This document shows, piece by piece, positions 347 through 33,690 of a DNA stretch of 64,000 bases (position 1 is its first letter; every line of letters starts with the position of its first letter). The stretch is from Isurus oxyrinchus (taxonomy: Eukaryota), in NCBI GenBank assembly GCA_026770705.1, contig JANJGN010000034.1, positions 15,872,001 to 15,936,000 on the forward strand, written 5' to 3'. The notes under the pieces were generated by a model. That model did no database searches. It was not told the origin of the DNA and worked only from the letters and a program-made list of their open reading frames with translations. The translations under genes and the position numbers were made by a program.

Positions 347-691
347 GTGACTCGCCTGTCCCAGTTTCTGGGTTCCTTGGGGAGCGGGTTGTGCTGCCCT
401 GTACCTACAAGGGGACTGTCCCAGTCTCGGATTTACAGGTAATCTGGGGCACACCCAATTATGAATTTTTACACAAGTTTGTCGATGGGAAAGATGATTT
501 GGCAGAACAAGACCCACGATTCAGAAACAGAACAAACCTGTTCAAAGATCAACTGGGACGAGGCAACTGGTCAGTTCTGATCTCTGACCTCAGGAAGTCA
601 GACCAGAACAAATATGAATGTCAGATTTACAGGAGGATGGGTTTGCGCTTTAGTTGGGAGCAAGTTGAGTCTGTTCTTCTTTCTGTGACAG
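347..691 (+). CDS. B7/butyrophilin-like single-IgV membrane protein, copy A: IgV exon
   Basis: Acceptor ttttccag|, donor g|gtgagc, 345 nt, phase 1-1. Encodes GDSPVPVSGFLGERVVLPCTY..VIW..EQDPRFRNRTNLFKDQLGRGNWSVLISDLRKSDQNKYEC..LSVT, with canonical V-set Cys/Trp/Cys and the B7/BTN-type 'Q..F.NRT.LF...L..GN.S..I' signature. The leader exon lies upstream of the window. Confidence 0.9.
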
Positions 692-842
692 GTGAGCGGT
701 TTCTGGTTTTGATATTCTTCATTTAATTTCTGATTTTATGCTTTCAGAAGTCAGTGATTATGTTGATGGACTAATTTAGAGTCTTTGAACATTTCTGCAG
801 TTTGTTTCACACACAATACTAAACACATGATGTTTTCTTTAG

Positions 843-881
843 AGCGACCTCAAACACCTGTACCGACCACGCCTGTACCAG
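843..881 (+). CDS. Copy A: Pro/Thr-rich stalk exon (ERPQTPVPTTPVP)
   Basis: ttttctttag| and g|gtaaat, 39 nt, phase 1-1; conserved in copy B (25531-25569). Confidence 0.8.
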
Positions 882-1613
882 GTAAATCTGATTCTAAACT
901 ACTGCATGTGTTTTCAGCTCTTACATTTGAACATGCTGCAGAGACAGGGAGTAAGATTGGAAGGTTTGAAATGCTGTGTGGTATTTCACCATAGAATGAT
1001 TCTGTGTGAGTGAGTGGTGTGGGTCACTGTTACCTGTAACTGGCCCTGAAACTACCTGGAATTGTTATTTCTGTTTCTGAGTCTCACCTTCCTGTCTCTC
1101 AGATACAAAACTCTTGAGGATCCCTGCTTCCCACTAGCATTCTGGAATTCTGTGTGGAAAGTCTTGGTACAATTATAACCAAACCCTCCTGCTGGGAAAC
1201 TGAGGGGATTTGGTGTAACACTGGTTGATGTCAGTGGAGAATAATATTGACCTGGGTGTAAATCTGTGTTTCACCCAATCCCGTGGCTTTCCTGATCTGC
1301 AAATTAGTTTAAAATTCCCGCTCTATTTCAGCGGACTGTTGGGTTTAATTGGAGGGAGTTTGTTGCTGGTCAGTGTCCAGTTATCTCAATTGGAAAGCAT
1401 GTATCCATCACATTGTGGGACAGTGTGTGTGCAAGAAGTTGTGGGGTGGTGTGGTGTGTGTGTGATTATTGGTATCTAACCTTCCTCCAGGACTAGAATT
1501 AATCAGAGATCTGTTTGTACTGGGGTTGGTTCTGAAACACTAGGTGCTGAAGGTCTCTGCTGTTAATTTTGTTAGTGTGTCCCAGTCTGTTAATGTCTTC
1601 ATTCTGTCTCCAG

Positions 1614-1743
1614 GTCCTGTACTTTGTACAGGAGCACGGCCTGGATTTGGATTTGGAATTGGAGTTGGAGTTGCTGTTGGTTTTTTTGCTGGAGTTTTGC
1701 TTTCTGGAATTGCGGTTTGTGTATTCCAAAGGCGACAAAAATG
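1614..1743 (+). CDS. Copy A: transmembrane exon
   Basis: ctccag| and tg|gtgagt, phase 1-2. Encodes GPVLCTGARPGFGFGIGVGVAVGFFAGVLLSGIAVCVF followed by the basic stop-transfer segment QRRQK. Confidence 0.85.
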
Positions 1744-2040
1744 GTGAGTTCTAGAATGTTTCATTGTTTCCAATTTAATCCTGTTTTTGTTTTATAATGT
1801 TTTCTTAAATGTTGCTGCCATCTAAACCTGTCCATTTACTGAGCTGTGAGAATGCTTCAATCCACCCTATCATTGAGCAGCATTATCCAATCACTTCCAG
1901 CTTGTCATCCTGCCCAGTCCGGTGCGAGTGCCCTGCCGCTGGCTCTCTGCCCGGCTGCAGGATGGCGCAGAGACCGAGTACTGCTTTCCGGGCCATAACT
2001 CCGGGATGGACGGTGGGATTGACACATGGTCAACAGCTGC

Positions 2041-2483
2041 TTGCGGGGCTTTTGTTATGAGGAGAGGTTGAGTTGGTTGGGCCTGTACTCATTGGAATTT
2101 AGAAGAATGAGAGGCGGCCTTATTTGAACATAAAAGATTCTTCAAGGGGCTTGACAGGGTAGAAGCGGTGAGGTTGTTTCCCCTTGTGGGAGAGTCTAGG
2201 ACCAGAGGGTATACTCTCAGAGCAAGGGTTCGCCCATTTAATACAGAGATGAGGAATTTCTTCTCTGAGGGTTGTGAATCTGCAGAGGGCTGTAGAGGCT
2301 GGGTCGTTAAGTATATTCAAGCCTGAGATAGATTTTTAATCAGTAAGGGAATCGGGGGTTATGGGGAAAAGGCAGGGAAGTGGAGTTCAGGATTATCAGA
2401 TCAGCCATGATCTCTTTGAATGGCAGAGCAGACTTGATGGGCTGAATGGCCTATTTCTGCTCCTGCATCTTATGGTCTTATGG
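2041..2483 (+). mobile_element. CR1-type LINE 3' fragment
   Basis: Typical CR1 ORF2 end and 3' UTR (tatgaggagaggttgag...gggctgaatggcctatttctgctcct) with a short tandem tail tcttatgg x2. Confidence 0.7.
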
Positions 2484-3738
2484 CTTGGCCGGCTACGGAA
2501 AACGGTAGCTGTGCGCTGCCCACAGCGCATTGCCTGGCCGAGCTAGAGCCCAGAGACCGGGAAGTGGTTTTGGTGAATAATTTTGGCGTGCTGTACCCGA
2601 ACACTTCGCTGCACAGGAGGCTGCTAGACAGCTGAGCAGGCAGTTTAACATCTCAGCTGAAAGACATTACTTCCAACAGTTCAGCACTCACTCACTCATT
2701 TTGGTATCTCCCCCCCCCCCGCCCCCTGTCGTTTGGGGGGTCCCGTGTCACAAGGGTTTGATTGTAAATCTGCCGCTGTTCATCCTTGAATTTATTTAGG
2801 ACTGAGATAGACAGATTTTAACATTCTCACCCTTTTATCAAACATTCTGTGGCCTCACTCCTCCCCATGTGTAACCTCCTTCCGCCCCACAACCCTCAGA
2901 TCTCTGCACTCCTCCAATTCTGGTGTCTTCAGAATCCCTGATTTTCCATCGCTGCATCATTGGTGGCTGAGCCTTTAGCTGCCTGGGCCCGAACTCTGGA
3001 ATTTCCTCCCTCAAGCTCTGCCTGTCTGTGTGTGTCTGTGTCTGTCTCTCTTCCTTACCTCCCAACAACACCATTTGCTCCTTAAAGCCTACCTCACTGC
3101 CTGAACCCTTGTGTAGCTCAGTGTCAAATTTTGTTTCATAAGCATTTAGGATATGTTCTGTTCAAGGTTCTATATAAACACAAGTTGTTGTTGTTCAGTC
3201 TCCTCCTGCACTTTCCAAACCACCGCCCTTTAACCCGGATATTAGATGTTTCAGTCACTGGGAAGGCCATCTCGAATTCCCTTCGCTCACTCAATATCCG
3301 CATCTCCGTGCTCACCACCTGTCTCCACATACACCCCTTGCAGTGGGAGGAGGAACTATTGTAGGGTTCTCTAACTCTATCCTCTGGCCCTCCCTCTGTC
3401 GGTCAGCACAGCTCCTGTGGAGTGTCCAGCTCTTGCCCATTGCCTCCCCTGTGAGCCTGCTCTCCTCTACAGTCTGTGCTCCATCAGCATGCGGCTCCTG
3501 TGACCCATTTTCCAGCTGCCATTGGTGCCCAGGATGTTGAGTGTAATTTAATCAGGTCTGTGCTCCTGTACGGCTCCTTTACACACTTGTCCAAAGTGTT
3601 GGATCCTTTTAATGTCGCTTGAACTCTGCTGGTTTTTCTGTCCTAGGAAACAAAATAGACACCAGAACACAAAATAGACACCAGAACACTCAAAATGAAG
3701 CGTCTTACATTGTCACAGTAATGGTTTTTCTCTCCTAG

Positions 3739-3904
3739 GAATTGTGTTCAAAATCGACACTCCAACAATCGAAATGAAGGACCTAATGATGTCCCTTTGA
3801 CAGGGGTGAGCTGTCCAGGTGAAGCACGGGGCCTTGTGACAACAGCACCTGAGCATCAGGATGGAGAAGAAAACCTTGTGGGGAACGGGACTGTCCAGCA
3901 CTGA
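3739..3904 (+). CDS. Copy A: cytoplasmic terminal exon
   Basis: Acceptor tttttctctcctag|, phase 2. Reads NCVQNRHSNNRNEGPNDVPLTGVSCPGEARGLVTTAPEHQDGEENLVGNGTVQH*, homologous to copy B 27865-28018. An internal donor ggg|gtgagc at 3805 is also possible. Candidate poly(A) signal ATTAAA at 4914-4919. Confidence 0.6.
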
Positions 3905-4196
3905 CTGAGTTTCCCCAGCACTGAGCCTGTGTCAGGGAGGGGGAAATCAGGCCAGTATTGTGGTTATCTAGTGATTCCTGGTGGAATGTCTGAGCTCAGG
4001 ATTGGGATCAACAATCACTTCCCACTTTGTACAAACTGTCCTGACCAGCACAATCTCAGGAGGGAAACTCCCAGTGGAACTCTAATCCCTTTACTAAGAA
4101 AACTGTCCAAGTATTTCATTCTCTGCATTATCTCTCAGCATTCCTGTTACAGAATGTGTCCAAACCCAATCTCAGGAATGTACAGGACCATCTTTA

Positions 4197-4400
4197 ACAA
4201 AAACAGAATTACCTGGAAAAACTCAGCAGGTCTGGCAGCATCGGCGGAGAAGAAAAGAGTTGACGTTTCGAGTCCTCATGACCCTTCGACAGAACTTGAG
4301 TTCGAGTCCAAGAAAGAGTTGAAATATAAGCTGGTTTAAGGTGTGTGGGGGGGCGGAGCGAGAGAGAGAGAGAGAGAGAAGTGGAGGGGGGGGTGGGGCT
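4197..4400 (-). mobile_element. Penelope-like element 3' terminal fragment with a hammerhead-like motif
   Basis: Near-identical to the end of the GIY-YIG-encoding element at 13638-13820. Confidence 0.75.
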
Positions 4401-5699
4401 GTGTAACCCATTGATCACTCCCTGTGTGAGATGGTAACTTCCTACTGATGAGTGAGTGGGAACATCTGGCAGTTCCTGGCGTGTTTATTCACTTGGTGTG
4501 GATGATGCTGCCAGGGTCCTATTTATTGTCCATCTCTGCTTGAACCACTGCAGTCTTGTCGTGATTTGTGCTCCCATAGAGGTAAATATGGGAAGAGGCT
4601 TCAGAAACTCCCTCTGCAGCAGCATCCGCTCGGTAAAAACCAGCAACGACATTATTGTCAGCAACTGTTTTATATCCTGAATTCAGATTGTAGATGGTTC
4701 ACAGATTGAAACTGTTTCTTGCCAGAAATTATGTAGATATGTTCGGTATATTTTAATTTTGTCTTTTTTATATAGTTTTTTGTGGCAAACAGTGAGTGGT
4801 CATATTTTACAAAGGATGTATAAAATTTCTAATGTAAATATTTTCTGAATGTGTCTATACGTTTCTGTCTGGTATATTTTTTTCTTTTCTACATGTCATT
4901 GATCCAAGGTCTAATTAAAGATAAACCAATGCTGAAATGAGTGGATCTACAGTCTGATGTTTAATGACTCTGGTAGTCACTGCCTGAACAGAGGTCATGC
5001 TGTCTGCAGGCAGTAAGTCTCCCGATGTGAGAAGTGAATGAGATTGGCTGAAGACTGGTATCTGTGATTGTGGGAACTTCCGGAGGACAGGAATGATCAT
5101 GCAGTCAGCCTTTCTGGTGATTGGGCATTAGGGGACGGGGAGGTGTGGGGGAGAGGGATTGGGAGGGAGGGAGTGTGTGATCACCCTTTACCTTTCCTGG
5201 GGTGGAAGTGGTTTTGGCGTGAACAAACAGAGCAATTCAACTTCTTCAGGGGTGGAGACCCTTACACAGACACGGAGAGAAAATACAGGAACATGGAAAT
5301 AGTATTCACACATCACAATAGCAACTGAATAATGATAGGAGTCCAGACTTGTTGAACCTCGTCATGAACAAGTTATATTTTATAATGTTAAAGGTGTTTT
5401 ATAAATGTCCCAAGGTGCTTCACAGGAACATGCTAAAAGAGAATTTGATACCAAACCACATCTGGAGACATTAGGTCAGAGGATGAAAATGAGATCAGTT
5501 TTCCAGAGCTTGGAGCCCAGACAACTGAATTGCAGACACCTTTTAAGGAAAAATTCTCTTTTAATATAAATGTGGTTACATTGCAGCCCCCAAAAACACA
5601 AATTCTCTTTGGCTGCCAGTTTCTCCTCCTGCCTCCATCCTTCTCCACCTGGCTGAACTTGTTCTCACCTTTACCTCCACTCACTCACTTTACATCAAA

Positions 5700-6245
5700 G
5701 GTGTGAGCTATGAGCACCCACGTGGACACTAGCTCTGCCGGCCTTTTAGAAGGATATGTGGAACTTTCCTTGGTCCAGTCCTACTCGGGCCCCATCCCCC
5801 ACCTCTTTTACTGCTGCGTTGATGACGATGACTGAATTGGTGCTGCTTTAGACTCTCAGCCTGAACTGGAAAATTTCTTCAACTCTGCTTTCATTTTCCA
5901 CCCTTTCCTCACTTTCACACAGTCCATTTCCAACTCTTGCTTTCCTCAAATTCTCTGTCACCATTTCTGGGGATGGCCTGTCAAAGAATATTCACTAGAA
6001 TCCCCCCCAATCCCACAGTTACCTCGACGATACTTCTCACAAGTTTCTCCCACTTGGTAACTTCTGTTCTGATCGTACAACTGATCTTTTTCCTTAACCA
6101 ATTCCCCAACACTGTGGTTAACAAGACCCCCATCCCATTTCCTGCACTTATTCTCTCACCCCTCTGACCCCTCCCACCCTACCCCCATTGCCCACTGAAC
6201 ACCATGTCAGTAGTCCCCTTGTCCTCACCTTCCACCCCACCAGTC
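5700..6245 (+). mobile_element. Degenerate Penelope-like RT fragment
   Basis: Decayed similarity to the RT region (GVAMGTRMGP...) of the element at 14800-15330. Confidence 0.5.
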
Positions 6246-7374
6246 TGGAGTGGGGTTTAAACCCACAGCCTTCAGACTCTGAGTGAGAGTGTTACCCACT
6301 GAGTCATGGCTGACGTGGGATACCTGCAGCCCTCTGTTAGCCCCACATTAACATCCATCCTTCATCTGTCAGAGTTTTGACAGAGGGGATTTAATTTCAC
6401 AAGGTTTAATCCTCAATGTGGATCCTCACTCAGGGTAAGTGAGCGTTGGAACATTTGACCAGCTGTGTTGTAGCCCTTTCTCTGTGACTACATTCACTGT
6501 GTAGGAAGACTCGCTGCTGAGAGCAGAGCCTTGTTAGACAACTCCTTTAGATTCAGCAGTTTATCTAACATTGCATTGAAGCCTGATCCTGATGTCCAGC
6601 AGGAGTTTCCAGACAGGGACCAGGACAGGAATGTCAACAAGTCATTCCCCTCTCTCACTCTGAGCACTGAGATCAATATTAGCTGCTGCTCTGGTTGAGG
6701 CATCTTTTCCCTCTGGGGTCCAGATGGTCCTTTAGTCAGATCCACGTGAAGGGATGTTAGAGGAAAAAACATATTCAAAGTTTTAGGCAGATTCTCAAAG
6801 AAGGGAAGAGAGATGTGGGGAGGTTTAATCTGGCATCGCAGTGAAGCTGGTGTCGGCCTGAATTTCATGCTCAGCTCTCCGGAGCGGCTCTGTGAACTCA
6901 CGACCTTCCGACTCAGAGCTACCACTGAACCGCAGGGTAGTTGGGATGCTGGGGGAGGTTTCAGTCCCTCACACCACCGGGTCCCTTACGCACTGTATGG
7001 TACAGGGGAATAGGCGGGGCTGTACATCCCACACTGGGAACATCCATTTCAAACACATCAGAAATAGGAGCAGGAGGAGGCCATTCAGCCCCTCAACACC
7101 CTTTCCCCCCCTCATTAATATCATGCCTGATCTTGTACATCAACTCCACTTTCCACCTGATCATCATATCCTGGAATTCCCTTCAAGTCAAAATCTCTCA
7201 GCCTTGAATATACCGGTTGGCTTTCACATCTCCTGGGATCCAATTCAGGACAGCATTGATTCAGTGCTGAGTGTCTGTATTAAAATCCAACAATGACTTA
7301 GTGGGATCACTCTCACTTCTGAATCCCATTCCAGAGACATGAGCCCCATATCCAGTCTAACATTCCCAGTGCAA

Positions 7375-7605
7375 TATTGAGGGAGTGCTGCACTTTCGGA
7401 GCGTCAGCACTGAGGGAGTGCTGCACTGTCGGAGCATCAGTACTGAGGGAGCGCTGCACTGTTGGAGCTTCAGTACTGAGGGAGTGCTGCACTGTCGGAG
7501 GATCAGTACTGAGGGAGTTCTGCATAATCAGACGGCCAATACTGAGGGAGTGCTGCACTTTTGGAGGGTCAGTAATGAGGGAGTGCTGCACTCTTGGAGG
7601 GTCCT
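7375..7605 (-). repeat. 33-bp SINE-derived minisatellite
   Basis: About 7 copies of actgagggagtgctgcactgtcggagggtcagt; the reverse complement of the array at 44055-44395. Confidence 0.8.
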
Positions 7606-8189
7606 CATGTCTGGACAGCTGAACTGTTGGATATGCTGTTGTTCGGATGAAACATTGAACCGAAGCCTGTCTGTTCTCTCAGAACAATGAGAAAAATCCC
7701 ATGGTCACTATTTGGAAGTTAATCGGAGGGAGTTTTCCCGTAGACCTGGACCCAATATTTATCCCTAAACCCACATCATTAAAAACAGGTGATCTGATTT
7801 TGTCCTGACCCAGCATTTGTGGGAGCTTAAAAACAAAACTAAAAATACCTGGAAAAACTCGGCAGGTCTGGCAGCATCTGCGGAGAGGAACAAAGTTAAC
7901 GTTTCGAGTCCGTAGGACTCTGTATGACTGTGGGATCTTGCTGTGCACAAATTCACTACCGCATTTCATGCATTACCATGGTTCAAAAACATTCATTTCG
8001 CAGTTTGTATATTATTTTATTGTAAGTAGTAAAGTATGTTGTTGATTATAAATCACTTTGGGAGATCTTGTGGCCATGAAAGCTGCTATATCAATGCAAG
8101 TCTTGTCATCAAAGACGCTCAATAATCTCCCTGCAATACTGGCCTTTGTTCACCTGGTGGCGCTGGTGCTCAGCAGCGGCATCAAGTGA

Positions 8190-8353
8190 CTGACTCGCTG
8201 GCTGTGGAGAGACCATGATCATGAAGCTGGTTCTCCCAGGACGAGACCAGCCCATTGCACTTCGGGTGTGCTGACGCCTGCGATGTCCCCAAATGCGGGA
8301 TACTCGACTGCAAAATTTGTGGTAGTGGGGGACTCCGTTCGTGCTCTCCCCAG
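8190..8353 (+). ncRNA. RNU1: U1 snRNA copy (variant or pseudogene)
   Basis: Full-length colinearity with vertebrate U1: ctggc..ggagagaccatgatcatgaag, U1A loop attgcac, Sm site aatttgtg, 3' stem-loop gggggact..ctcccc. The 5' ATACTTACC is replaced by ctgactcgc, and an A-rich tail follows. Confidence 0.9.
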
Positions 8354-8365
8354 AAAAATAAAGAA

Positions 8366-8575
8366 ACCCTTTAATACAGGAACCAGACTCTGGGTTTATC
8401 TGACTGAACCCCTTTAATTCAGGAACCAGACTCTGGGTTTATCTGACTGAACCCCTTTAATACAGGAACCAGACTCTGGGTTTATCTGACTGAACCCCTT
8501 TAATTCAGGAACCAGACTCTGGGTTTATCTGACTGAACCCCTTTCATACAGGAACCAGACTCTGCGTTGATCTGG
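8366..8575 (+). repeat. 43-bp minisatellite, short array
   Basis: About 5 copies of aggaaccagactctgggtttatctgactgaacccctttaatac. Confidence 0.9.
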
Positions 8576-8614
8576 CCGGATGTTATTCCCTCAAAAGGGA
8601 AATATTGGGCAAAC

Positions 8615-8945
8615 TAAATCCAGAGTTCCATGGATGAAAAAAGATAGAAATTCAGATCAGAAGAGAAATCTTTGCTTCTGACAGGTGTGGGGTAGAAAAT
8701 GCAATCAAGAACCAGGCTGAGTATAACAGGGTCTCCAGGGAGGTGGAAGAGGAATTAACAGAAGCAAAGAGGGAGTATGAAAAGAGACCGGCAGCTGACG
8801 TAAAAGCGAATCGCAAAGTCTTCGATGGGAAATAGACAGTAAAAAAGGTGGTTACAGCGGGAGTCGGTGCAATGAGGGACAAGAAAGTGGATATGAACAT
8901 GGATGCAGAGGCCTTGATTGAGATATTAAGTAAATACTTTGCAAC
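8615..8945 (+). mobile_element. CR1-type LINE ORF2 fragment
   Basis: Decayed ORF2 linker sequence (AKREYEKR..NRKVF..KKVV..LSKYFA), homologous to part of the 18885-20005 element. Confidence 0.55.
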
Positions 8946-8949
8946 CAAG

Positions 8950-9525
8950 GTGGCAACAAAAACACCGTAGACAAGAAATCTCCAGTCAATAAAGCGACAG
9001 ACAAGAAATCTCCAGTCAATAAAGCGACAGACAAGAAATCTCCAGTCAATAAAGCGACAGACAAGAAATCTCCAGTCAATAAAGCGACAGACAAGAAATC
9101 TCCAGTCAATAAAGCGACAGACAAGAAATCTCCAGTCAATAAAGCGACAGACAACGAAATGATCAGCCAGAAAGCAACAAGACCAAACAAGTCAGTGAAG
9201 AAAGCAGCGCTTCAGGGAACATCTCCTGTGAAGATGGTCACGGGTGGAAAGGCTTTAAAAAAAGTGAATAACTCGAAGGCCCAGCTCAAAGTGAAAGGAA
9301 CAAAGACTAAGAAAGCAGTACAAAAACAGAATTACCTGGAAAAACTCAGCAGGTCTGGCAGCATCGGCGGAGAAGAAAAGAGTTGACGTTTCGAGTCCTC
9401 ATGACCCTTCGACAGAACTTGAGAAAGCCAGTGTCCGGAAGGAAGTGAAAGCGGCCGTGCAGATTGTAAAGAGCTGAACCCAGAGGCCCTTCTCAGAGTC
9501 TCCCAGGTCTCTCAGGAAAGAGCTG
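8950..9525 (+). pseudogene. H1: Histone H1 C-terminal remnant with stem-loop and HDE
   Basis: Lys-rich frame (KKSPVNKATD x6, ..SVKKAA..SPVK..KKVNNSKAQLKVKGTKTKKA) interrupted by a Penelope end at about 9320-9420; likely stop at 9446-9448. Degenerate histone stem-loop aacccaga-ggcccttctcagagtc-tccca (9485-9500) and U7-binding HDE aaagagctg (9517-9525). Confidence 0.7.
8971..9150 (+). repeat. 30-bp in-frame tandem repeat (6 identical copies) in the H1 remnant
   Basis: acaagaaatctccagtcaataaagcgacag x6. Confidence 0.95.
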
Positions 9526-10237
9526 AACCCTGGATCCAATGATCCCTGTCCCGGGACTGAGAGCAGATTTCAGATAGAAATGAATTTGAGTAGATGCAGG
9601 ATTGCCGGTCACTCGGTGACGTGTTGTACACCCAGACCCTTCCCCACCTCCCGCCAGTCTCTCCAATAAAACAGGGGGATGTCCATGTCCCATTCAGACT
9701 GGGGATTCGCTCAGTTTCAATCAGTTTCAGCTGGTTTCCATTTCACAGATTCAGGGTGAGAGTGTGTGAGAGACAGTCACCCTGAGAGAGAAACCCCGCC
9801 CCTCCCCATCACAACTCAAACCCTAACACATGACTTAGTCTAGATCAGCTGGAGACAGAGTGAGTGTTAATAGACTGTTCAATCTGTCCGGGAGGACAGG
9901 TGTGTGGGAATGGAATAAAAACTGGGATTGAACTGGAAACAGACGGGTTGAGTTGTTATAGAAAGGACTGGATTTAGGCGGGAGTATTCCTGACTTTTCA
10001 TTATTGTAACAGGCCTGGATTTAAAAACTCCGCCTGTCTAGTATGTCTGAATATGAAGTTCCGGTCTGTAAGTTTTGTGTGCAGGGCTATGTTTCGATTG
10101 TATTGGGAAAATTTTTTATTAAGAGATGTGGCTTGGAGCAAGCAGGAGGCGGAGCTGGATGATCAAAGACATTTCTCTGTCTGTCTGTCACTCAGTTTTC
10201 CTCTCTGTCCCTTTCTCAGTCAGCTCAGGCTGGGCTG

Positions 10238-10355
10238 TATAAAACAGCCACAGGAAGCAGCTCATCTCTCATTCAGCAGTGATCAGAGTGAGGAATCATC
10301 ATGTCTGGCACAGGGAGAGGGGCTAAAGCACTGGGGCAATCTCGGAGCAAAGCGA
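10238..10355 (+). pseudogene. H4: Histone H4 promoter and 5' coding remnant
   Basis: TATAAAA at 10238-10244 and ATG at 10301. Reads MSGTGRGAKALGQ, then a +1 frameshift, then GAKR, versus H4 [18 protein letters not shown]. Confidence 0.65.
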
Positions 10356-10479
10356 AGTGGATTGAGGGACGGGGCTGAATCGAGTCCCAGCTCTCGGGCG
10401 GACTCTCCACTGTTTTCAACAGGCAGCCCCCAAGCAGCCTCTACATTAACAGGGTTTGTGTTCCAGACCGTTTAACACA

Positions 10480-10768
10480 CTGAGCGGAACTAAGCAGACA
10501 GCTCGCAAATGCAGCGGAGGGAAAGCTCCCCGCAAACAGCCGCCCAAAGCGTTCTCCAGCCAGGGCCGGAGTGAAGGAACCTCCTGGTGACAGAGCCGGC
10601 ACTGGGACTCTGCGGGAAAGCCGCCGCTGCCACAATCGCACCGAGCGGCTCACCCGCAAACTGCCCGTCCGGTGGCTGGTGTGAGAGATCAGTCAGGACT
10701 TCAAGACAGAGCTGCTCTTCCAGTGAAAGGCGCTTATGAGGCTGCAGGAGGCCAGTGAGGTTCACCTG
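10480..10768 (+). pseudogene. H3: Histone H3 pseudogene (3'-truncated)
   Basis: (L)SGTKQTARKCSGGKAPRKQ..GVKEP..GTGTLRE.RR..TERLTRKLP..LV*EISQDFKTELLFQ*..LQEASEVHL. The start codon is lost and there are in-frame stops and a deletion. Confidence 0.9.
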
Positions 10769-23831: not shown

Positions 23832-24176
23832 GTGACTCGCCTGTCCCAGTTTCTGGGTTCCTTGGGGAGCAGGTTGTGCTGCCCTGTACCTACAAAGTGA
23901 ATGTCCCAGTCTCTGATTTACTGGTAGTCTGGGAGACAGCCAAGGGTGAAATTTTACAGAAGTTCATCGCTGAGAACGAGGATTTGACAGAACAAGATCC
24001 ACGATTCAGAAACAGAACAAACCTGTTCAAAGATCAACTGGGACAAGTCAACTGGTCAGTTCTGATCTCTGACCTCAGGGAGTCAGACCAGAACCAGTAT
24101 ATATGTGACATTTACAAGAGGATAGCTGTGGGTTATAAACCGGAGCAAACTGATATCATCCATCTTTCTGTGACAG
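23832..24176 (+). CDS. B7/butyrophilin-like single-IgV membrane protein, copy B: IgV exon
   Basis: Same splice sites and length (345 nt) as copy A. Open frame GDSPVPVSGFLGEQVVLPCTY..VVW..EQDPRFRNRTNLFKDQL..NWSVLISDLRESDQNQYIC..LSVT. Confidence 0.9.
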
Positions 24177-24221
24177 GTGAGAGGTTTCTGCTTCAGGTAT
24201 TCTGTATTTAATCACTGTATG

Positions 24222-25100
24222 GGTTCGGTAATTCAGTGGTTATGTTACTAGACTAGTAATACAGAGGCCTGGACTAATAATCCAGAGGATGAGAGTTCAA
24301 ATCCCAGCATGGCACTTCCAGAATTTAAAATCAGTTTATTAAATAAAAATCTGGGAAATATAAAGTTAGTTGCAATAAAAGTGACCCTGAAGCTGTTGGA
24401 TTGTTGTAAAACCCCAACTGGTTCATGAATGTCCCTTTAGGGAAGGAAACCTGCTGTCCTTACCCAGTCCCACAGTAACCTGGTTGGTTAAGCTGGCCTA
24501 GGAGGTCAGAGGGCAGTTAAAAATGAATTGATATCAAACCATTGGAGAGAAAGAATAGAATAAAACTGAATCATGACTGGCTTCACCCCGGGCATCGAAT
24601 CAGGAAACAACACAGACAAACCCAGGCCAGTTGACATTGCAAAGTCCCCTCACTAACATCTGGGGACTGGTGTCCAAGTTGGGAGAGCTGTCTGGCAGAG
24701 TCATACTGACAGAATTAACCCTGAATCCCAGTCTCTATCACCATCCCTGGGTATGTTCTGTCCCACTGGCAGGACAGCCCCACCAGAGGTGCAGTATACA
24801 GTCCAGAGGGAGTGGTCCCGGGAATCCTCAACATTGACTCTGAACCCCATGAAGTCTCACAGCTTCAGATCAAACACAGACCTGGAAACCTCCTGCTGAT
24901 TATCACCTACTGCCCTCCATCAGCTGATGAATCAGTACTCCCCCATGCTGAACACCACTTGGAGGAAGCAGTGAGGGTGGCAAGAACACATAATGTACTG
25001 AGTGGGGACTTCACTGTTCATCACCAAGGGTGGGTCAGTAATACCATCACTGACCAAGCTGATGGAGCCCTGAAGGACAGAGCTGTCAAACTGGGTGATG
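24222..25100 (+). mobile_element. tRNA-headed SINE-like segment plus LINE endonuclease fragment, specific to the copy B intron
   Basis: B-box gagttcaaatcc at about 24293; downstream decayed endonuclease (LLIITYCPPS..GDFTVHH). Absent from the equivalent copy A intron. Confidence 0.55.
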
Positions 25101-25530
25101 GAGTTAATGGAGCTATCATGCTGCACTCACTCTCCAGCAAAGAGCTCTGTCTGTCTCCAGATGTTGGGGTGCAGGAGGTGGGGCCCATCACGCCTCTCAG
25201 GCAGCCTCTACAAGACCCAGTGCGCTTACCTTGAAAGTGTATCCCAGTAGACCCAGGATCCTGGGAGTATTCTCTCCACAGGGGGATGTAGGCTGCTGGG
25301 AATGATCCTGCTCAGGGTAACTCTGGAAAACTTCCATTCTACAGCCCCCCACAGTTAATGCAATCTTGTTGGATTTTTCACTCTGCCGACCCCGTTACTG
25401 ATCCTTCCCGCTCAGTTTGACCCAAATCCCGTTCCTCCCAGGATGTGTTTCCCTAAAAGCCCAATAGAGCCTTTGAACATTTCTGCAGTTTGTTTCACAC
25501 ACAATACTAAACACATGATGTTTTCTTTAG

Positions 25531-25569
25531 AGCGAGCTCGTACACCTGTACCGACCACGCCTGTACCAG
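25531..25569 (+). CDS. Copy B: stalk exon (ERARTPVPTTPVP)
   Basis: ctttag| and g|gtaaat, 39 nt, phase 1-1. Confidence 0.8.
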
Positions 25570-26312
25570 GTAAATCTGTTTCTAAACTACTACATGTGTT
25601 TTCAACTCTTACATTTGAACATGCTGCAGAGACAGGGAGTAACATTGGAAGGTTTGAAATGCTGTGTGATATTTCACCATAGAATGATTCTGTGAGAGTG
25701 AGTGATGTGGGTCACTGTTACCTGTAACTGCCCCTGAAATTACCTGGAATTGTTATTTCTGTTTTCTGAATCCCACCTTCCTGTCCCTCAGATACAGAAC
25801 TGAGGATTCCTGCTTCCCACTAGCATTAGTGTCCCCGGAATTCTGTCTGGAAAGTCTTGGTACAATTTTAACCGAACCCTCCTATTGGGAAACTGATGGG
25901 ATTGTGTGTAACATTGGTTGAAGTCAGTGGGGAGTTATACTGACCTGGGTGTCAATCAGTGTTCCACCCAATCCCGTGGCTTTCCTTTCCTGATTTAATA
26001 AAAATTCCCGCTCTGTTTCAGCGGACTGTTGGGTTTAATTCGAGGGAGGTTGCTGCTGGTCAGTGTCCAGTTATCTCGATTGGAAAACATGTATCGATCA
26101 CATTGTGGGACAGTGTGTGTGTGCACGGAGCTGTGGGGTGGCCTGGTGTGTGTGTGATTATTGGTATCTAACCTCCCACATCCCTCCAGGACTAGAATTA
26201 ACCAAGGATCTGTTTGTACTGGGGTTGGTTCTGAAACACTAGGTGCTGAAGGTCTCTGCTGTTCAATTTGTTAGTGTGTCCCAGTCTGTTAATGTCTTCA
26301 TTCTGTCTCTAG

Positions 26313-26415
26313 ATCCTGGACTCTTTACTGGAGCAAGACCTGGATTGGGAATTGGAATTCTTGTTTTTCTTGTTGCTGTAATTGTGGTTTTCATATTCCA
26401 AACACGACAAAGACG
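26313..26415 (+). CDS. Copy B: transmembrane exon
   Basis: ctctag| and cg|gtgagt; DPGLFTGARPGLGIGILVFLVAVIVVFIFQTRQR; 27 nt shorter than copy A with the frame preserved. Confidence 0.85.
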
Positions 26416-27864
26416 GTGAGTTCTAGAATGTTCCACAGCTCCCATTGTTAATTCCAGTTTAGTTTTATTACATTTAGTGTTGCGGAAATGTTGTGTACAG
26501 TGATACACTTTGAGCTGTGTGGGATGTTTCAATGCTGCATTATCCAGTCACTTCCAGCTTGTAATCATCCTCTAGCTGCTGAACTGACGATGAGCAGGAA
26601 TGTGCGGCTCCCTCTATCACACAGTTAATAGACACTCGCCGAATCTCTGTACCAAAGAACTCACCAGCCGACATCCAAAATCCCCTTGTTGCCTCTCCTC
26701 TGACTTTTCTCCACCCTCTGATCCTTGCTCTGTTCCCCAGTCACTGACTCCATCCCCCTCTGTCAGCTTCAGCTCATCGAAAACTCTGCTGCCCCACATC
26801 CTAACTTACTCCCAAGTCCTGTTCACCCTCACACCCTCTGCTCACTCACCTACATTCATCCCCCTGTTCAAACTCCCCGATGGCCTCAGCCCCTCCCTAC
26901 CCCTTTTAACTCCTCCTGGGCCGACAGCCTTTGAGATGCCTGTGCTCATCTATCTGGCCTCTTGACCATCCCCTGATTTCCATCACTCCATCATTGGCGG
27001 CCGTGACGTCAGCTGCCTGGGCCCTAAGCTCTGGAATTCCCTCCCTAAACCTCTCTTTTTCAGGCACTCTTTAAAACCTACCACCTTTTGATCAAGACTT
27101 TGGTCACCTGTCCTAATATCTCCTTATGTGGCTCACGCTTTCCCCTGTTAGGCACCTTTGGACAATAAGGATGCTATATAAATGCAAGTTGTTGCTCAAT
27201 CTCAGCACCCTGTGACCCGGCCATCTGTGGTTTCCATCACTGGGACAGCCATCTTGGATTTCCTTGTCTCCTTCAACATCCCCATCTCCCTGCCCACCTC
27301 TCGCCCACCCACCGGTGGGGAGGGGAAATTATTACAGACACTCTAACCCTGTCCTCTGACTCTCCATCACGATATTTCTGTGTTTGTTGACCTGTTTGGT
27401 CACTGCTGGATTGGGCTTGAGCACATCAAGGAATATCCTGTCCATCTGTGGCTCCTCTCAATCCTTCAGGATCAGTCTGGAGAGTCCGGAAACTCCCAAC
27501 CTCCTCGTGTCTGATCTGATCCCCATTATCTTCAGCTCAGCGTTAACTGAGATCCTCATCAATTCTTCTTCATCTCCAATATTGAGGTGAGCTGGCATTT
27601 TTCTATTTGTCTGGTTCCTCAGTCAGCACAGCTCCTGTGGAGTGTCCAGCTCTTGCCCATTGCCTCCCCTATGAGCCTCCTTCCTCTACGCTCTGTGCTC
27701 CATCACCGTGCAGCTCCTGTGACCCATTTTCCAGCTGCTATTGGTACCCAGGATGTTGAGTGTAATTTTATTGGTCTGTGCTCCTGAACGGCTCCTTTAC
27801 ACACTTGTCCAAAGTGTTGGATTCTTGTAATGTCACCTGAACTCTGCTGGTTTTTCTCTCCTAG

Positions 27865-28018
27865 CAATCGACACTTGAATAATCGAAATGAAGCATCTAA
27901 GGATGTCCCTTGGACAGGGGTGAGCTGTCCAGGTGAAGCACGGGGCCTTGTGACAACAGCACCTGAGCATCAGGATGGAGAAGAAAACCTTGTGGGGAAC
28001 AGGACTGTCCAGCACTGA
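27865..28018 (+). CDS. Copy B: cytoplasmic terminal exon
   Basis: tttttctctcctag|, phase 2; NRHLNNRNEASKDVPWTGVSCPGEARGLVTTAPEHQDGEENLVGNRTVQH*. Confidence 0.65.
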
Positions 28019-28179
28019 CTGAGTTTCCCCAGCACTGAGCCTGTGTCAGGGAGGGGAAAATCAGCCCAGAGTGGATGATTGTTACATATGAATGTATAAC
28101 CCTCTGCGCTGTGGAGGCTCCCCCCCTCATCGCCACCACTGCCCTGCAGGGGCCCAGCCTTCTCCCCACTCCCAATGTC

Positions 28180-31100
28180 ATGCAGAGGATCTCTCCCGAC
28201 ACGCCAGGGCAGCCCACCGAGGCAGCCGCACCCCCCTCCTCCCCCACAATGAGGCACTGAGGTCTAAGTGCTGAGGGATGTATTAGAGTTTCGGGGCAGC
28301 CGCCACAAAGGCACAATGGGGAAAGGTCGCTGTCTAAGACCTTTCAGCTACAGGGCACCGAGGGGCTGGGAACTGTATAGACCCCTCGGGCTGTACGACT
28401 CAGACGGAAAGTATACAGTGAACACTAAATATATCATAATTGTATTGAAGCACCTCAGAGTGCTAACATGATGTATGGCGATAACATGAATAGCTTTGCA
28501 CTGTCTGACTCTCTGTAATGACCATATTGAAATGTCTGTAATATTGATTCTATTGAAACACCTCATGACCTGTGTGGAAAACTGGAATATGATTGGTCAT
28601 CACAAAAAAATGCATTTTGAAATGCCCCCTCAGTACTGACCCTCCGACAGCGCGGAGCCCCCTCAGTACTGACCCTCTGACAGCGCGGAGCCCCCTCAGT
28701 ACTGACCCTCTGACAGCGCGGAGCCCCCTCAGTACTGACTCTCCAACAGCACATCGCCCCCTCAGTACTGACCCTCTGACAGCGCGGAGCCCCCTCAGTA
28801 CTGACCCTCCAACAGCACGGAGACCCCTCAGTACTGACACATCAACAGCACTGCACCACCTCAGTGTCGTCTTTCCGACAGTGCGGAGCCCCCACAGTGT
28901 TGACCCTCCGACAGTGCGGTGCCCCTCAATTGTGACCCTCTGACAGCGTGGAGCCCCCTCAGTACTGAACCTCCGACAGCGCGGAGCCCCCTCAGTACTG
29001 ACCCTCAGACAGCGCGGCGCCCCCTCAGTACTGAACCTCCGACAGCACGGAGCCACCTCTACTGACCCTCCGACAGCGCGGAACCCCCTCAGTACTGACC
29101 CTCCACAGCGCGGAGCCCCCTCAGTACTGACCCTCCGACCACGTGGAGCCCCCTCAGTACTGACCCTCCGACAACAGAATGTGTTAATAGCAGAACGATG
29201 GTCAACACTCGGTGAAAGAACAACATGGAAGAAGTGACAGATGGTGTTTCGTGGTGGGGAGAGGGGACATTGGAAGCGAGACGATTACCAAGTGGAATAA
29301 AAAAGTGGATAAATTAATGAATAAATAATAAAAATAAGGAGCTAAAACAATAAAAGCACTTTCATGACGGGACGTTGTTGAACTCCATGTTAAGTCTGCT
29401 GTTTCTCCAGTTTCCTGTTCTGCTTTGGTGTGTCGGGTCAATTCTTCCACAGGTCCTCCACCCCTGGAATCGGGGAGAAATTGGTGCCTTCTCTCCATCC
29501 AGAAACTGAACTGGACCAGCCATGTACATACTGTGGCCACAAGAGCAGGTCAGAGGCTGGGAATCCTGTGGTGAGTAACTCACCTCCTGACTCCCCAAAG
29601 CTTGTCCACCATCTACAAGGCACAAGTCAGGAGTGTGATGGAATACTCCCCACTTGCCTGGATGAGTGCAGCTCCCACAACACTCAAGAAGCTCGACACC
29701 ATCCAGGACAAAGCAGCCCCGCTTGATTGGCACCCCATCCACAAACATTCACTCCCTCCACCACCGACACACAGTAGCAGCAGTGTGTGTACCATCTACA
29801 AGATGCACTGCAGAAATTCACCAAGGCTCCTTAGACAGCATCTTCCAAACCCATGCTGGCTCCCCTACCAACACCACCAATGCCCTGCAGGGACCAGCCC
29901 TCCCCACTCCCCCCGACACGCCAGGGCAGCCCACCGAGGCAGCCGCAACCCCCCCCCCTCCTCCCCCACAATGAGGCACTGAGGTCTAAGTGCTGAGGGA
30001 TGTATTAGAGTTTGGGGGCAGCCACCACAAAGGCACAATGGGGAAAGGTCGCTGTCTAAGACCTTTCAGCGACAGTGCACCGAGGGGCTGGGAATTGTAT
30101 CGACCCCTCGGGCTGTACGACTCAGACGGAAAGTATACAGTGAACACTAAATATAACATAATTGTATTGAAGCACCTCAGAGTGTTAACATGATGTATGT
30201 CGATAACGTGAATAGCTTTGCGCTGTCTGACTCTCTGTAATGACCATATTGAAATGTCTGTAATATTGATTCTATTGAAACACCTCATGACCTGTGTGGA
30301 AAACTGGAATATGATTGGCCATCACAAAAAAATGGATTTTGAAATGATCCCTCAGCACCCACCCTCTGACAGCGCGGAGCCCCCTCAGTACTGACCTTCC
30401 GACAGCGCGGAGCCTCCTCAGTATTGCCCCTCTGACAGCGTGGAGCCCCCTCAGCACCCACCCTCCAACAGTGCGGAGCCCCCTCAGTACTGACGCTATG
30501 ACAGCGCAGTGCCCCCTCGGTACTGACCCTCCAACAGCGTGGCGCCCCCTCAGTACTGACCCTCCGACAGTGCTGAGCCCCCTCAGTACTGACCCTCCGA
30601 CAGCGCGGCGCCCCCTCAGTACTGACCCTCCGACAGCACGGAGCCACCTCTACTGACCCTCCGACAGTGCAGAGCCCCCCTCAGTACTCACCCTCCGACA
30701 ACACCTTGCCCCCTCAGTGCGGACCCTCTGACAGCGCGTAGCCCCCTCAGTACTGACCCTCGACAGCGCGGAGCCCCCTCAGTACTGACCCTCCCTCAGC
30801 GCAGAGCCCCCTCAGTACTGACCCTCCGACAACGCCTTGCCCCCTCAGTACTGACCCTCGACAGCACAGCGCCCCCTCAGTACTGACCCTCGACAGCGCG
30901 GAGCCCCCTCAGTACTGACCCTCCCTCAGCGCGTAGCCCCCTCAGTACTGACCCTCCCTCAGCGCGGAGCCCCCTCAGTACTGACCCTCCGACAGCGCGT
31001 AGCCCCCTCAGTACTGACCCTCCGACAGCGCGTAGCCCCCTCAGTACTGACCCTCCGACAGCGCGTAGCCCCCTCAGTACTGACCCTCCGATAGCGCGGA

Positions 31101-33690
31101 GCCCCCTCAGTACTGACCCTCCGACAACGCCTTGCCCCCTCAGTACTGACCCTCCGACAGCGCGGAGCCCCCTCAGTACTGACCCTCCGACAGCGCGTAG
31201 CCCCCTCAGTACTGACCCTCCGACAGCGCGGAGCCCCCTCAGTACTGACCCTCCGACAGCGCGGAGCCCCCTCAGTACTGACCCTCCGACAGCGCGGAGC
31301 CCCCTCAGTACTGACCCTCCCTCAGCGCGGAGCCCCCTCAGTACTGACCCTCCGACAGCACGGAGCCCCCTCAGTACTGACCCTCCCTCAGCGCGGCGCC
31401 CCCTCAGTACTGACCCTCCGACAGCGCGGAGCCCCCTCAGTACTGACCCTCCGACAGCACGGAGCCCCCTCAGTACTGACCCTCCCTCAGCGCGTAGCCC
31501 CCTCAGTACTGACCCTCCGACAGCGCGGAGCCCCCTGAGTACTGACCCTCCCTCAGTGCGTAGCCCCCTCAGTACTGACCCTCCCTCAGCGCGGAGACCC
31601 CTCAGTACTGACCCTCCGACAGCGCGGAGCCCCCTCAGTACTGACCCTCCGACAGCGCGGCGCCCCCTCAGTACTGACCCTCCGACAGCACCTTGCCCCC
31701 TCAGTACTGACCCTCCGACAGCGCGTAGCCCCCTCAGTACTGACCCGCCGACCGCGGTGCCCGCTCAGTACTGACCCTCCCTCAGCGCGGATCCCCCTCA
31801 GTACTGACCCTCGACAGCGCGGCGCCCCCTCAGTACTGACCCTCCCTCAGCGCGGAGCCCCCTCAGTACTGACCCTCCCTCAGCGCGGCGCCCCCTCAGT
31901 ACTGACCCTCCGACAGCGCGGAGCCCCCTCAGTACTGACCCTCCGACAGCGCGGAGCCCGCTCAGTACTGACCCTCCGATAGCGCGTAGCCCCCTCAGTA
32001 CTGACCCTCCGATAGCGCGTAGCCCCCTCAGTACTGACCCTCCGACAGCGCGTAGCCCCCTCAGTACTGACCCTCCGACAGCGCGGAGCCCCCTCAGTAC
32101 TGACCCTCCGACAGCAGAATATGTTAATAGCAGAACGATGGTCAACACTCGGTGAAAGAACAACATGGAAGAAGTGACAGATGGTGTTTCGGGGTGGGGA
32201 GAGGGGACATTGGAAGCGAGACGATTACCAAGTGGAATAAAAAAGTGGATAAATTAATGAATAAACAATAAAAATAAGGAGCTAAAACAATAAAAGCACT
32301 TTCATGACTGGACGTTGTTGAACTCCATGTTAAGTCTGCTGTTTCTCCAGTTTCCTGTTCTGCTTTGACGTCTCGGGTCAATTCTTCCACAGGTCCTCCA
32401 CCCCTGGAATCGGGGAGAAATTGGTGCCTTCTCTCCACCCAGAAACTGAACTGGACTAGCCATGTACATACTGTGGCTACAAGAGCAGGTCAGAGGCTGG
32501 GAATCCTGCGGTGAGTAACTCACCTCCTGACCCCCCAAAGCCTGTCCACCATCTACAAGGCACAAGTCAGGAGTGTGATGGAATACTCCCCACTTGCCTG
32601 AATGAGTGCAGCTCCCACAACACTCAAGAAGCTCGACACCATCCAGGACAAAGCAGCCCCGCTTGATTGGCACCCCATCCACAAACATTCACTCCCTCCA
32701 CCACCGACACACAGTAGCAGCAGTGTGTGTACCATCTACAAGATGCACTGCAGGAATTCACCAAGGCTCCTTAGACAGCATCTTCCAAACCCATGCTGGC
32801 TCCCCCACCAACACCACCGCTGGCCTGCAGGGACCAGCCCTCCCCACTCTCCCCGACACACCAGGGCAGCCCACCGAGGCAGCTGCAACACCCCCCTCCT
32901 CCCCCACAATGAGGTACTGAGGTCTAAGTGCTGAGGGATGTATTAGAGTTTGGGGGCAGCCGCCACAAAGGCACAATGGGGAAAGGTCGCTGTGTAAGAC
33001 CTTTCAGCGACAGTGCACCGAGGGGCTGGGAATTTTATAGACCCCTCGGGCTGTACGACTCAGACGGAAAGTATACAGTGAACACTAAATATATCATAAT
33101 TGTATTGAAGCACCTCAGAGTGTTAACATGATGTATGTCGATAACGTGAATAGCTTTGCACTGTCTGACTCTCTGTAATGTCCATATTGAAATGTCTGTA
33201 ATATTGATTCCATTGAAACACCTCATGACCTGTGTGGAAAACTGGAATATGATTGGCCATCACAAAGAAATGGATTTTGAAATGACCCCTCAGCACCCAC
33301 CCTCTGACAGCGCGGAGCCCCCTCAGTACTGACGCTCCGACAACGCCTTGCCCCCTCAGTGCGGACCCTCCGACAGTGCGGTGCCCCCTCAGTACTGACC
33401 CTCCGACAACATCTTGCCCCCTCAGTACTGACCCTCGACAGCGCGGCACCCCCTCAGTACTGACCCTCCGATAGCGCAGCGCCCCCTCAGTACTGACCCT
33501 CTGACAACGCCTTGCCCCCTCAGTGCGGACCCTCCGACAGCGCGGCGCCCCCTCAGTACTGACCCTCCGACATCTTGCCCCCTCAGTACTGACCCTCGAC
33601 AGTGCGGCACCCCCTCAGTACTGACCCTCCGATAGCGCAGCGCCCCCTCAGTACTGACCCTCCGACAGCGCGGCTCCCCCTCAGTGTCGA
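28180..33690 (+). repeat. Tandemly triplicated composite unit: Tx1 3' end + 33-bp minisatellite + Penelope and CR1 fragments
   Basis: The same junctions recur at about 28180, 29900 and 32840. Arrays of the 33-mer ctcagtactgaccctccgacagcgcggagcccc lie at about 28625-29175, 30350-32115 and 33290-33690. Confidence 0.85.

What the first reader, a model, noticed from the sequence alone, without database searches (positions are those of the whole stretch)
347..28018. Tandem pair of V-only B7/BTN-like genes diversified on the ligand-binding face
Seen: two paralogues share exon structure (leader seen only in B / IgV / 13-aa Pro-Thr stalk / TM / Tyr-free tail) and have closely similar flanking introns. 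By hand count about 36 of 115 V-domain residues differ. The differences cluster in C-C'-C'' (GTPNYEFLHKFVDGKD vs ETAKGEILQKFIAENE) and F-G (ECQIYRRMGLRFSWEQVESVL vs ICDIYKRIAVGYKPEQTDIIH). The A-B and D-E segments (QDPRFRNRTNLFKDQLG, NWSVLISDLR) are almost invariant. Known: B7-family ligands bind receptors through the AGFCC' face and usually have V+C domains. Inference: a lineage-specific, C-domain-less B7-like family under diversifying selection, driven by receptor co-evolution or pathogen binding.
Basis: partly seen in the sequence, partly recalled or inferred. Interest (0 to 1): 0.75.

Follow-up and report, generated by a model that had tools for sequence, protein, structure and literature searches.

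The report
Shark B7-like family swapping binding faces
These two genes belong to a shark family of about 16 short B7-like membrane-protein genes whose predicted receptor-binding face differs sharply between copies and whose exons are exchanged between copies, likely an undescribed, diversified set of immune cell-surface ligands.

Summary
In detail: genes A and B differ at 36 of 114 V-domain codons, and 23 of the 30 front-face positions differ. They are 2 of 16 genes in this genome (20 V exons, 10 intact). Relatives occur in 12 other shark species, as V or V-V proteins, with no C domain in those checked. The domain is B7-type (best sequence hits VTCN1 and CD276; best fold CD86). Three V-C B7-like genes lie between the two main clusters. 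Selection on the face has moderate support: one-tree site tests give P=0.002-0.007, which falls to P=0.12-0.30 with segment-wise trees; a structure-defined front class keeps omega about 1.9 (P about 0.01). Gene conversion is real: B's V exon is 1-2% from genes 1.6 Mb away while its introns differ by 8-9%, so the A-B exon-versus-intron contrast is not a valid selection test. Within a lineage the face is largely held across species, which favours specialising and then keeping a face over a continuous arms race. The closest known kind is the chicken BG array. No description was found in 8 searches. The binding partner is unknown.

The parts
347..691 (+). Gene A IgV exon (B7-type V-set; own face lineage, nearest to a whale-shark domain)
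843..881 (+). Gene A 13-codon Pro/Thr stalk exon
   Evidence: joint 881 to 1614 in relatives' contigs
1614..1743 (+). Gene A transmembrane exon (Gly-rich, no charged residue; 98.8-99.4% like the TM exons of two genes with other V types)
3739..3904 (+). Gene A last coding exon, Tyr-free tail with the family's conserved PEHQDG motif
   Evidence: joint 1743 to 3739 GT..AG in 3 of 4 laid runs
15941..15961 (+). Gene B first coding mini-exon (ATG, 7 codons)
   Evidence: matches the N-terminus of white-shark protein P0035
18274..18334 (+). Gene B leader (signal peptide) exon
23832..24176 (+). Gene B IgV exon (the face lineage expanded in lamniform sharks)
23800..24700 (+). Approximate recent conversion tract: 17 of 899 bases differ from the gene at C34:17.57 Mb, against about 8-10% on either side
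25531..25569 (+). Gene B stalk exon
26313..26415 (+). Gene B transmembrane exon
27865..28018 (+). Gene B last coding exon (Tyr-free tail; 100% identical to the tail exon at C34:17558799)

Best explanation
A and B are members of a shark gene family of C-domain-less B7-type membrane proteins (one or two IgV domains, a short stalk, a membrane anchor and a conserved Tyr-free tail) that likely act as cell-surface ligands for immune receptors through the GFCC' face. Shown: the anatomy, the tandem expansion with broken copies, the concentration of variation on exposed front-face positions, and the exchange of exon-sized pieces between copies. Inferred: after duplication each lineage's face was likely driven apart by positive selection and then mostly held, because it would serve its own counter-receptor (the shark CD28-family receptors are the first candidates). 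Unequal crossing-over and conversion keep shuffling V exons onto different leader, membrane and tail modules and even out the introns and framework. A and B carry two different faces on backbones that have been partly evened out.
For: B7-type V: best PDB sequence hits CD276 and VTCN1. The model (pLDDT 86) matches CD86 best (Z 16.3, rmsd 1.6, 107 aligned; PD-L1 15.0). Three V-C B7-like genes lie at C34:16.39-16.51 Mb between the clusters, and one has orthologues on contigs of the same length as those carrying this family in 3 other sharks. Over 80 shark V domains, entropy is 2.14 bits at front positions, 0.85 elsewhere in the same segments and 0.63 in the rest. Exposed C/F-strand positions average 1.9-2.1 against 0.49 for exposed B/E positions (P=0.0006). 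6 of 7 positions aligned to PD-L1 interface residues named in PMC5341541 differ between A and B (P=0.005). Omega of the front class is 1.9-2.0 with segment-wise rates and trees (P=0.009-0.015); 0 of 40 null simulations reached that statistic. Faces are held within lineages: front differences 0/30 and 3/30 to white-shark orthologues, 8/30 to a catshark, 10/30 from A to a whale-shark domain, against 22-23/30 between paralogues in this genome. No ITIM-like motif in 35 of 35 parsed tails and no charged TM residue in A or B, so not a typical signalling receptor. Conversion: the V-exon topology is rejected on both flanking introns (AU P=5e-6 and 2.5e-4).
Against: No binding partner, tissue or function was tested. 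With a tree per segment the free site tests are not significant (P=0.30, 0.27, 0.12) and the face segments as wholes give omega 1.04; omega does not differ among segments once their silent rates are free (P=0.55). The front class was drawn after the variation had been seen; restricted to 8 strand positions matched to PD-L1, omega is 1.65 with P=0.25. Only 10 sequences in 3-4 lineages were available. A PHI-like test found no recombination inside the exon or its flanks (P=0.06-0.88). That A and B are old lineages is not shown: a clade of lamniform A- and B-type domains is not rejected (P=0.30), and silent sites at unchanged codons differ by only 4 in about 61. The nearest B7 subfamily is unresolved (all AU P>0.11). 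There are far more face types than known shark CD28-family receptors.
Confidence: 0.5

Rival explanations
1. Pathogen-driven diversification: the proteins are entry receptors or decoys for viruses or microbes that bind B7-like faces, and copy turnover plus V-exon swapping provides escape.
For: Birth and death: 10 of 20 V exons are broken or lack a splice site. Among the four most recent B-type copies 8 of 10 variable codons change the residue. The strongest omega is in the CC' and FG loops (2.5, P=0.0035). One contig joins the stalk directly to the last exon, skipping the TM exon, which could give a soluble form (1 of 4 runs). A solved poxvirus protein-CD86 complex (8hxb) shows that viruses target this kind of domain. 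PMC5043582 proposes the same for chicken BG.
Against: Faces are nearly unchanged between orthologues of different species (0-3 of 30 within lamnids, 2 of 30 between whale and zebra shark), and one lineage is shared with catsharks (SH-aLRT 99). An arms race would be expected to erode these. No allele data were available.
Confidence: 0.22
2. Relaxed constraint plus patchy gene conversion: the face is merely unconstrained and older than the evened-out framework, and the apparent omega>1 is an artefact.
For: Silent tree length is 0.71 and 0.59 in the two face segments against 0.32 and 0.12 in the others (P=0.009). The intron right after the V exon is as divergent as the face (0.71). Free site tests vanish with segment-wise trees. 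Conversion tracts are shown. Many copies are broken.
Against: The front class stays above 1 with segment-wise rates and 0 of 40 simulations of this null reached the observed statistics. Unconstrained faces would not be held between species within lineages. C-C' is divergent although it lies between two evened-out segments.
Confidence: 0.15
3. A cell-recognition code: paralogues bind one another face to face between cells, as nectin, CEACAM or SLAM-family domains do (recalled), rather than a CD28-type receptor.
For: There are many face types, V-V forms exist, and the tail is conserved without Tyr motifs. GFCC'-to-GFCC' binding is common among IgV proteins (established knowledge, recalled).
Against: Sequence and fold are closer to B7 ligands than to adhesion families. 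The family is linked to V-C B7-like genes.
Confidence: 0.13

Closest known systems
Chicken BG genes of the BG region (butyrophilin/B7 family; PMC4046983 abstract, PMC5043582 abstract and Discussion)
   Same: V domain as the described ectodomain, tandem array with expansion and contraction, hybrid genes, exchange of sequence between copies.
   Different: BG tails are heptad-repeat coiled coils from many short exons, BG chains are joined by a CDR1 cysteine, and variation is in CDR1/CDR2-equivalent loops. Here the tail comes mostly from one exon, A and B have only the two canonical V cysteines, there is a Pro/Thr stalk exon, and variation covers the GFCC' sheet and the CC' and FG loops. No orthology shown.
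B7 ligands CD86/CD80, ICOSL, VTCN1 (B7-H4), CD276 (B7-H3), PD-L1
   Same: B7-type V domain (HxFxxG, FRxRTxLFxDQ and GN motifs), CD86-like fold, type I membrane protein, linkage to V-C B7-like genes.
   Different: No C domain; many copies with divergent faces, where mammalian B7 ligands are single conserved genes (recalled); receptor unknown; subfamily unresolved.
MOG and the butyrophilins (BTN/BTNL)
   Same: MOG has a single V domain (recalled) and scores next in sequence and fold; NCBI names some members 'MOG-like' or 'butyrophilin-like'.
   Different: No C or B30.2 domain. This genome has a separate large V-C BTN-like cluster on C21, on the other side of a 95/84 branch, although the AU test does not exclude a joint clade (P=0.11).
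Bird V-only proteins annotated 'VTCN1-like' (P0078-P0083)
   Same: One V domain plus a Pro-rich stalk; highest-scoring non-shark domain (77 bits); its best hits in this genome are this family (68 against 58 bits for the next gene); one gene model fuses it to a V-C B7-like gene, so the two are probably neighbours (P0066).
   Different: About 43% identity, ends in a hydrophobic stretch without the shark tail, uniform among birds; shared ancestry neither shown nor rejected (AU P=0.39).

Membership tests
B7 family | B7-type N-terminal IgV domain | tested here: met
   VTCN1, CD276, PD-L1 best; CD86 Z 16.3
B7 family | IgC domain after the V domain | tested here: not met
   V splices to a 13-codon stalk and the TM; no C2-set_3 match inside the clusters among 37 genome matches; no C-set family in 12 of 12 V-bearing shark family proteins scanned
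B7 family | Signal peptide and one TM segment | tested here: met
B7 family | Binds a CD28-family receptor through the GFCC' face | not testable with these tools
   Only the location of variable sites was tested
B7 family | Groups with one named B7 subfamily in a tree | tested here: inconclusive
   Family monophyletic 99/99; five alternative sisters all have AU P>0.11 and a sixth has support 46/25; no mammalian B7 sequence was in the tree
Butyrophilin/MOG/BG | Cytoplasmic B30.2 domain (BTN) or heptad-repeat tail (BG) | tested here: not met
   Tail of about 55-60 aa, 50-54 of them from one exon; no further Pfam family
Butyrophilin/MOG/BG | Extra CDR1-loop cysteine for the disulphide dimer (BG) | tested here: not met
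   A and B have only C18 and C91 in the V domain
Butyrophilin/MOG/BG | Tandem array with hybrid genes and sequence exchange (BG region) | tested here: met
Butyrophilin/MOG/BG | V domain groups with BTN-like domains | tested here: inconclusive
   Separated by a 95/84 branch; AU P=0.113
Paired activating/inhibitory V-domain receptors (CD300/TREM, NITR, DICP type; features recalled) | ITIM-bearing tails paired with charged-TM members | tested here: not met
   0 of 35 parsed tails have an ITIM/ITSM-like motif; 3 of 35 TM windows have a charged residue, all white shark; none in A or B

The most novel reading that the evidence does not exclude
An unrecognised B7 subfamily of jawed vertebrates, kept as a V-only gene beside a V-C B7-like gene in birds and turned in sharks into a modular ligand repertoire. 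V exons act as binding cassettes that are moved by conversion, even across 1.6 Mb, onto different leader, membrane and tail modules, and each old face lineage serves its own shark CD28-family or other lymphocyte receptor.
Probability: 0.15. Interest if true: 0.78.

Novelty: new variant of a known kind. Interest (0 to 1): 0.5.

Why it matters
Sharks have a large CD28-family repertoire whose ligands are open questions (PMC11599192, passages read). A shark-wide set of B7-type proteins with distinct, long-held binding faces gives concrete candidates for a binding screen. It is also a second, apparently independent case of the chicken-BG pattern (V-only B7/BTN genes in a shuffling array), here with diversity on the canonical receptor face. 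Databases name these proteins inconsistently (CD276, MOG, SCN4B, ICOSL, JAML, BTNL2, CD86-like), which hides that they form one family. The general pattern, an expanded immune Ig family with a variable face, is familiar, which limits the surprise.

Tried and rejected
Pairwise A-B dN/dS: 1.66, not significant. It was also rejected as a test because the exon and the introns do not share one history. 'Framework clusters by shark order more than the face does': not supported overall (order-level Fst 0.19 framework, 0.22 face). PHI-like recombination test: not significant in 4 of 4 settings. Homodimer through the conserved back face: the complex prediction gave no verdict (score 0.00), which is no evidence either way. 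Run search: no RNA holder listed on record; the best shares were 0.23 among guessed-RNA runs. The V-to-stalk joint was not among the 15 joints shown, with 50 not shown. Descent from the linked V-C genes or kinship with the bird V-only protein: unresolved. No ray or chimaera protein appeared among the named hits. In the best 150 of the profile search, none of the 133 newly listed proteins except two shark-like fragments (one V, one tail) scored above 68 bits per domain, and the 10 looked up were all ray-finned fish. This does not show absence in rays, as only 8000 candidates were scored and most hits are unnamed. The ESM Atlas returned only V-set chordate clusters with automatic names. Earlier findings of the scan: none in 3 look-ups. 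Literature: no description of the family in the listings. The key B7-evolution paper PMC3709836 is not held, and subscription papers and supplements were not seen, so a prior mention cannot be excluded. Rows dropped: broken V exons were left out of the codon tests (10 of 20 used, 11 with the copy that lacks its acceptor); the first 4 codons were dropped; 1 partial and 10 duplicate domains were dropped before the 80-domain set; 35 of 65 proteins had a parsable TM and motif-bearing tail.
Full report
1. The observation. All quoted motifs are in the window in open frames. Gene A has V 347-691, stalk 843-881, TM 1614-1743 and a last coding exon 3739-3904; its ATG and leader exons lie upstream of the window at C34:15866612 and about 15867260. 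Gene B has an ATG mini-exon 15941-15961, leader 18274-18334, V 23832-24176, stalk 25531-25569, TM 26313-26415 and last exon 27865-28018, giving 240 aa with AG/GT at all internal junctions. The V exons differ at 36 of 114 codons and 52 of 342 bases. pN/pS by segment: A-B 0.05/0.09, C-C'-C'' 0.26/0.10, D-E 0.04/0.04, F-G 0.39/0.27; pooled introns 0.08-0.09. The clustering is real.

2. What it is. A genome search found 20 closely related V exons, 19 on C34 and 1 on C31. They belong to 16 genes: 9 at C34:15.71-15.90 Mb (A and B are the last two), 5 at 17.50-17.58 Mb, 1 at 7.6 Mb and 1 on C31. Ten V exons are open with normal splice sites; the others have stops, frameshifts or a lost acceptor. Three genes are V-V genes whose second V is dead, and two of the ten intact-V genes have lost the usual last-exon acceptor. 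All 50 homologues in the first database search were shark proteins, 61-78% identical. A profile search found the family in 12 shark species of five orders, as V or V-V proteins. Near identity of some paralogues to white-shark proteins indicates a lamniform shark (inference). Contigs from guessed-RNA runs of relatives, laid at 85% likeness or more, join 1743 to 3739 at GT..AG in 3 of 4 runs (3 studies), 881 to 1614 in 1 of 4, and 881 to 3752, skipping the TM exon, in 1 of 4. This shows splicing in the family, not expression of A or B in this genome.

3. Fold and kinship. Pfam gives V-set only. The best PDB sequence matches are CD276, VTCN1, MOG and PD-L1. The AlphaFold model (pLDDT 86) aligns best to CD86 (Z 16.3, rmsd 1.6, 107 residues), then PD-L1 (15.0) and MOG (14.8). 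No C2 domain lies inside the clusters, but three V-C B7-like genes lie between them at 16.39-16.51 Mb. Orthologues of one of them sit on contigs of the same length as those carrying the family in three other sharks. In a 35-domain tree the family is one clade (99/99), apart from the genome's BTN-like and VTCN1/HHLA2-like domains (95/84; those labels are my reading of the sequences), but no sister group is resolved. Bird V-only proteins are the best non-shark match in both directions.

4. Where the variation lies. Over 80 shark V domains, outward positions of strands C and F average 1.9-2.1 bits, inward ones 0.39, and outward positions of strands B and E 0.49 (P=0.0006). Inward and outward were assigned from the conserved Cys/Trp register and the model's strands, not from coordinates. 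Of 7 positions aligned to PD-L1 interface residues named in PMC5341541 (passages read), 6 differ between A and B (P=0.005). The variable surface is therefore the B7 receptor face, not just any exposed surface.

5. Selection, for and against. With 10 intact exons on one tree, my codon models gave M1a/M2a P=0.007, M7/M8 P=0.005 and M8a/M8 P=0.0015, with omega 3.8 on 22% of sites, mainly 34-38, 88-92 and 98-108. With a tree per segment these fall to P=0.30, 0.27 and 0.12, and the face segments average omega 1.04. Silent rates differ among segments (0.32, 0.71, 0.12, 0.59; P=0.009), while omega does not once they are free (P=0.55). A 30-site front class keeps omega 1.9-2.0 (P=0.009-0.015) with segment-wise rates or trees. 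It holds without the FG loop (P=0.03) and is strongest in the loops (2.5, P=0.0035), but is not significant for 8 strand sites alone (P=0.25); the back-face control gives 0.65. Under a null of a neutral face with segment-wise rates, 0 of 40 simulations reached either observed statistic, though 3 of 40 passed the nominal 5% mark in the one-tree test. The class was drawn after seeing the data and multi-nucleotide changes were not modelled, so the support is moderate.

6. Shuffling. B's V exon is 1.2-2.4% from three genes 1.6 Mb away, while its upstream and stalk-TM introns are 7.5-9% from them; the V topology is rejected on both introns (AU P=5e-6 and 2.5e-4). The tract runs about 23800-24700 (17 of 899 differences; P=2e-11 against the flanks). 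B's last exon is identical to one in that cluster. A's TM region is 4-5% from genes whose V is 18-20% from A's. The A-B intron distance therefore does not date the A-B exon split. A PHI-like test found no finer mosaic.

7. Age of the faces. One lineage is shared by lamniforms and catsharks (SH-aLRT 99), and monophyly of the lamniform domains is rejected (P=0.026). Front-face differences within lineages are 0/30, 3/30 and 3/30 among lamniforms for three lineages, 4-8/30 among B-type lamniform proteins, 8/30 to catshark, and 10/30 (A) and 12/30 (B) to whale shark. Between paralogues of this genome they are 22-23/30, with other positions at 13-17/80. On the face segments 50 of 54 non-lamniform domains are closer to A than B is; on the framework 0 of 54. 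For A against B alone an old split is suggested (A pairs with a whale-shark domain at 96/92 but is unresolved) and not shown (P=0.30; 4 silent differences in about 61 sites).

8. Mechanism. The tails are Tyr-free in A and B, carry a conserved PEHQDG motif, and none of 35 parsed shark tails has an ITIM-like motif. A and B have no charged TM residue. This fits a ligand better than a signalling receptor (inference). I commit to B7-like surface ligands whose faces were driven apart after duplication and then mostly held for distinct counter-receptors, while conversion and unequal crossing-over reshuffle the modules (0.5). PMC11599192 (passages and section 14 read) reports two or three CD28/CTLA4-like genes plus CD28H, CD28HL1/2, CD28X and PD-1 in cartilaginous fish, which are candidate partners. 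Rivals: pathogen receptor or decoy (0.22), relaxed face plus conversion (0.15), paralogue-to-paralogue recognition (0.13).

9. Comparison and novelty. It works like the chicken BG array (PMC4046983 abstract; PMC5043582 abstract and Discussion) but fails BG's tail and cysteine features. It is B7-like but lacks the C domain, so I do not file it as a canonical B7, BTN or BG member. PMC10751288 (passages) and PMC3964593 (one reference passage) did not mention it in what I saw. Eight searches listed no description; PMC3709836 could not be read and no supplements were read. Verdict: real, apparently undescribed, a new variant of a known kind; interest 0.5.

Noticed in passing
window 8187-8353 (+): U1 snRNA copy, full-length Rfam match (111 bits), between genes A and B; gene or pseudogene not determined.
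   Followed up: partly
window about 10300-10790 (+): Degenerate histone-like sequence: an H4-like start followed by H3-like fragments with stops and frameshifts (likeness recalled).
   Followed up: partly
G000:C34:16385001-16520000 (L069-L072): Three V-C B7-like genes between the two V-only clusters; two share a nearly identical C exon under very different V exons, again suggesting module exchange.
   Followed up: partly
G000:C34:17542301-17542570: One family gene has an extra exon after its leader that matches a non-V, Cys-containing segment without a Pfam family found in other sharks' members (P0027, P0069); some shark members carry this in place of the V domain.
   Followed up: partly
G000:C21 about 95-114 Mb: A separate large cluster of V-C butyrophilin-like genes (about 20 C2-set_3 matches on C21).
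   Followed up: no
G000:C30:1618721-1619002 (L029): A B7-type V exon that hits CD276, VTCN1, CD80, ICOSL and CD86; a candidate shark CD80/86 or ICOSL gene.
   Followed up: partly
P0008, P0009, P0036 (white shark): An Arg inside the TM segment in these gene models, absent from A and B here; could mark adaptor-coupled variants.
   Followed up: no
G000:C34:15786000-15858000: Two consecutive two-gene blocks, 41 kb apart, are 96-98.5% identical, with an inverted third copy at 15.74-15.77 Mb; recent duplication, although haplotype duplication in the assembly is not excluded.
   Followed up: partly
window about 50700-64000: Four copies of a roughly 3.5-kb unit containing a 37-bp minisatellite; no protein-coding exon recognised.
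   Followed up: partly
window about 28100-33800, 11525-12899: Tandem copies of retroelement fragments with a 33-bp satellite, and a 43-bp satellite array; a decayed LINE-like element at about 20000-23000 lies in gene B's leader-V intron (read from the sequence).
   Followed up: no
window 16300-17800 and 42275-42423: Stretches of N; the first set lies in gene B's first intron and does not touch the exons found.
   Followed up: no
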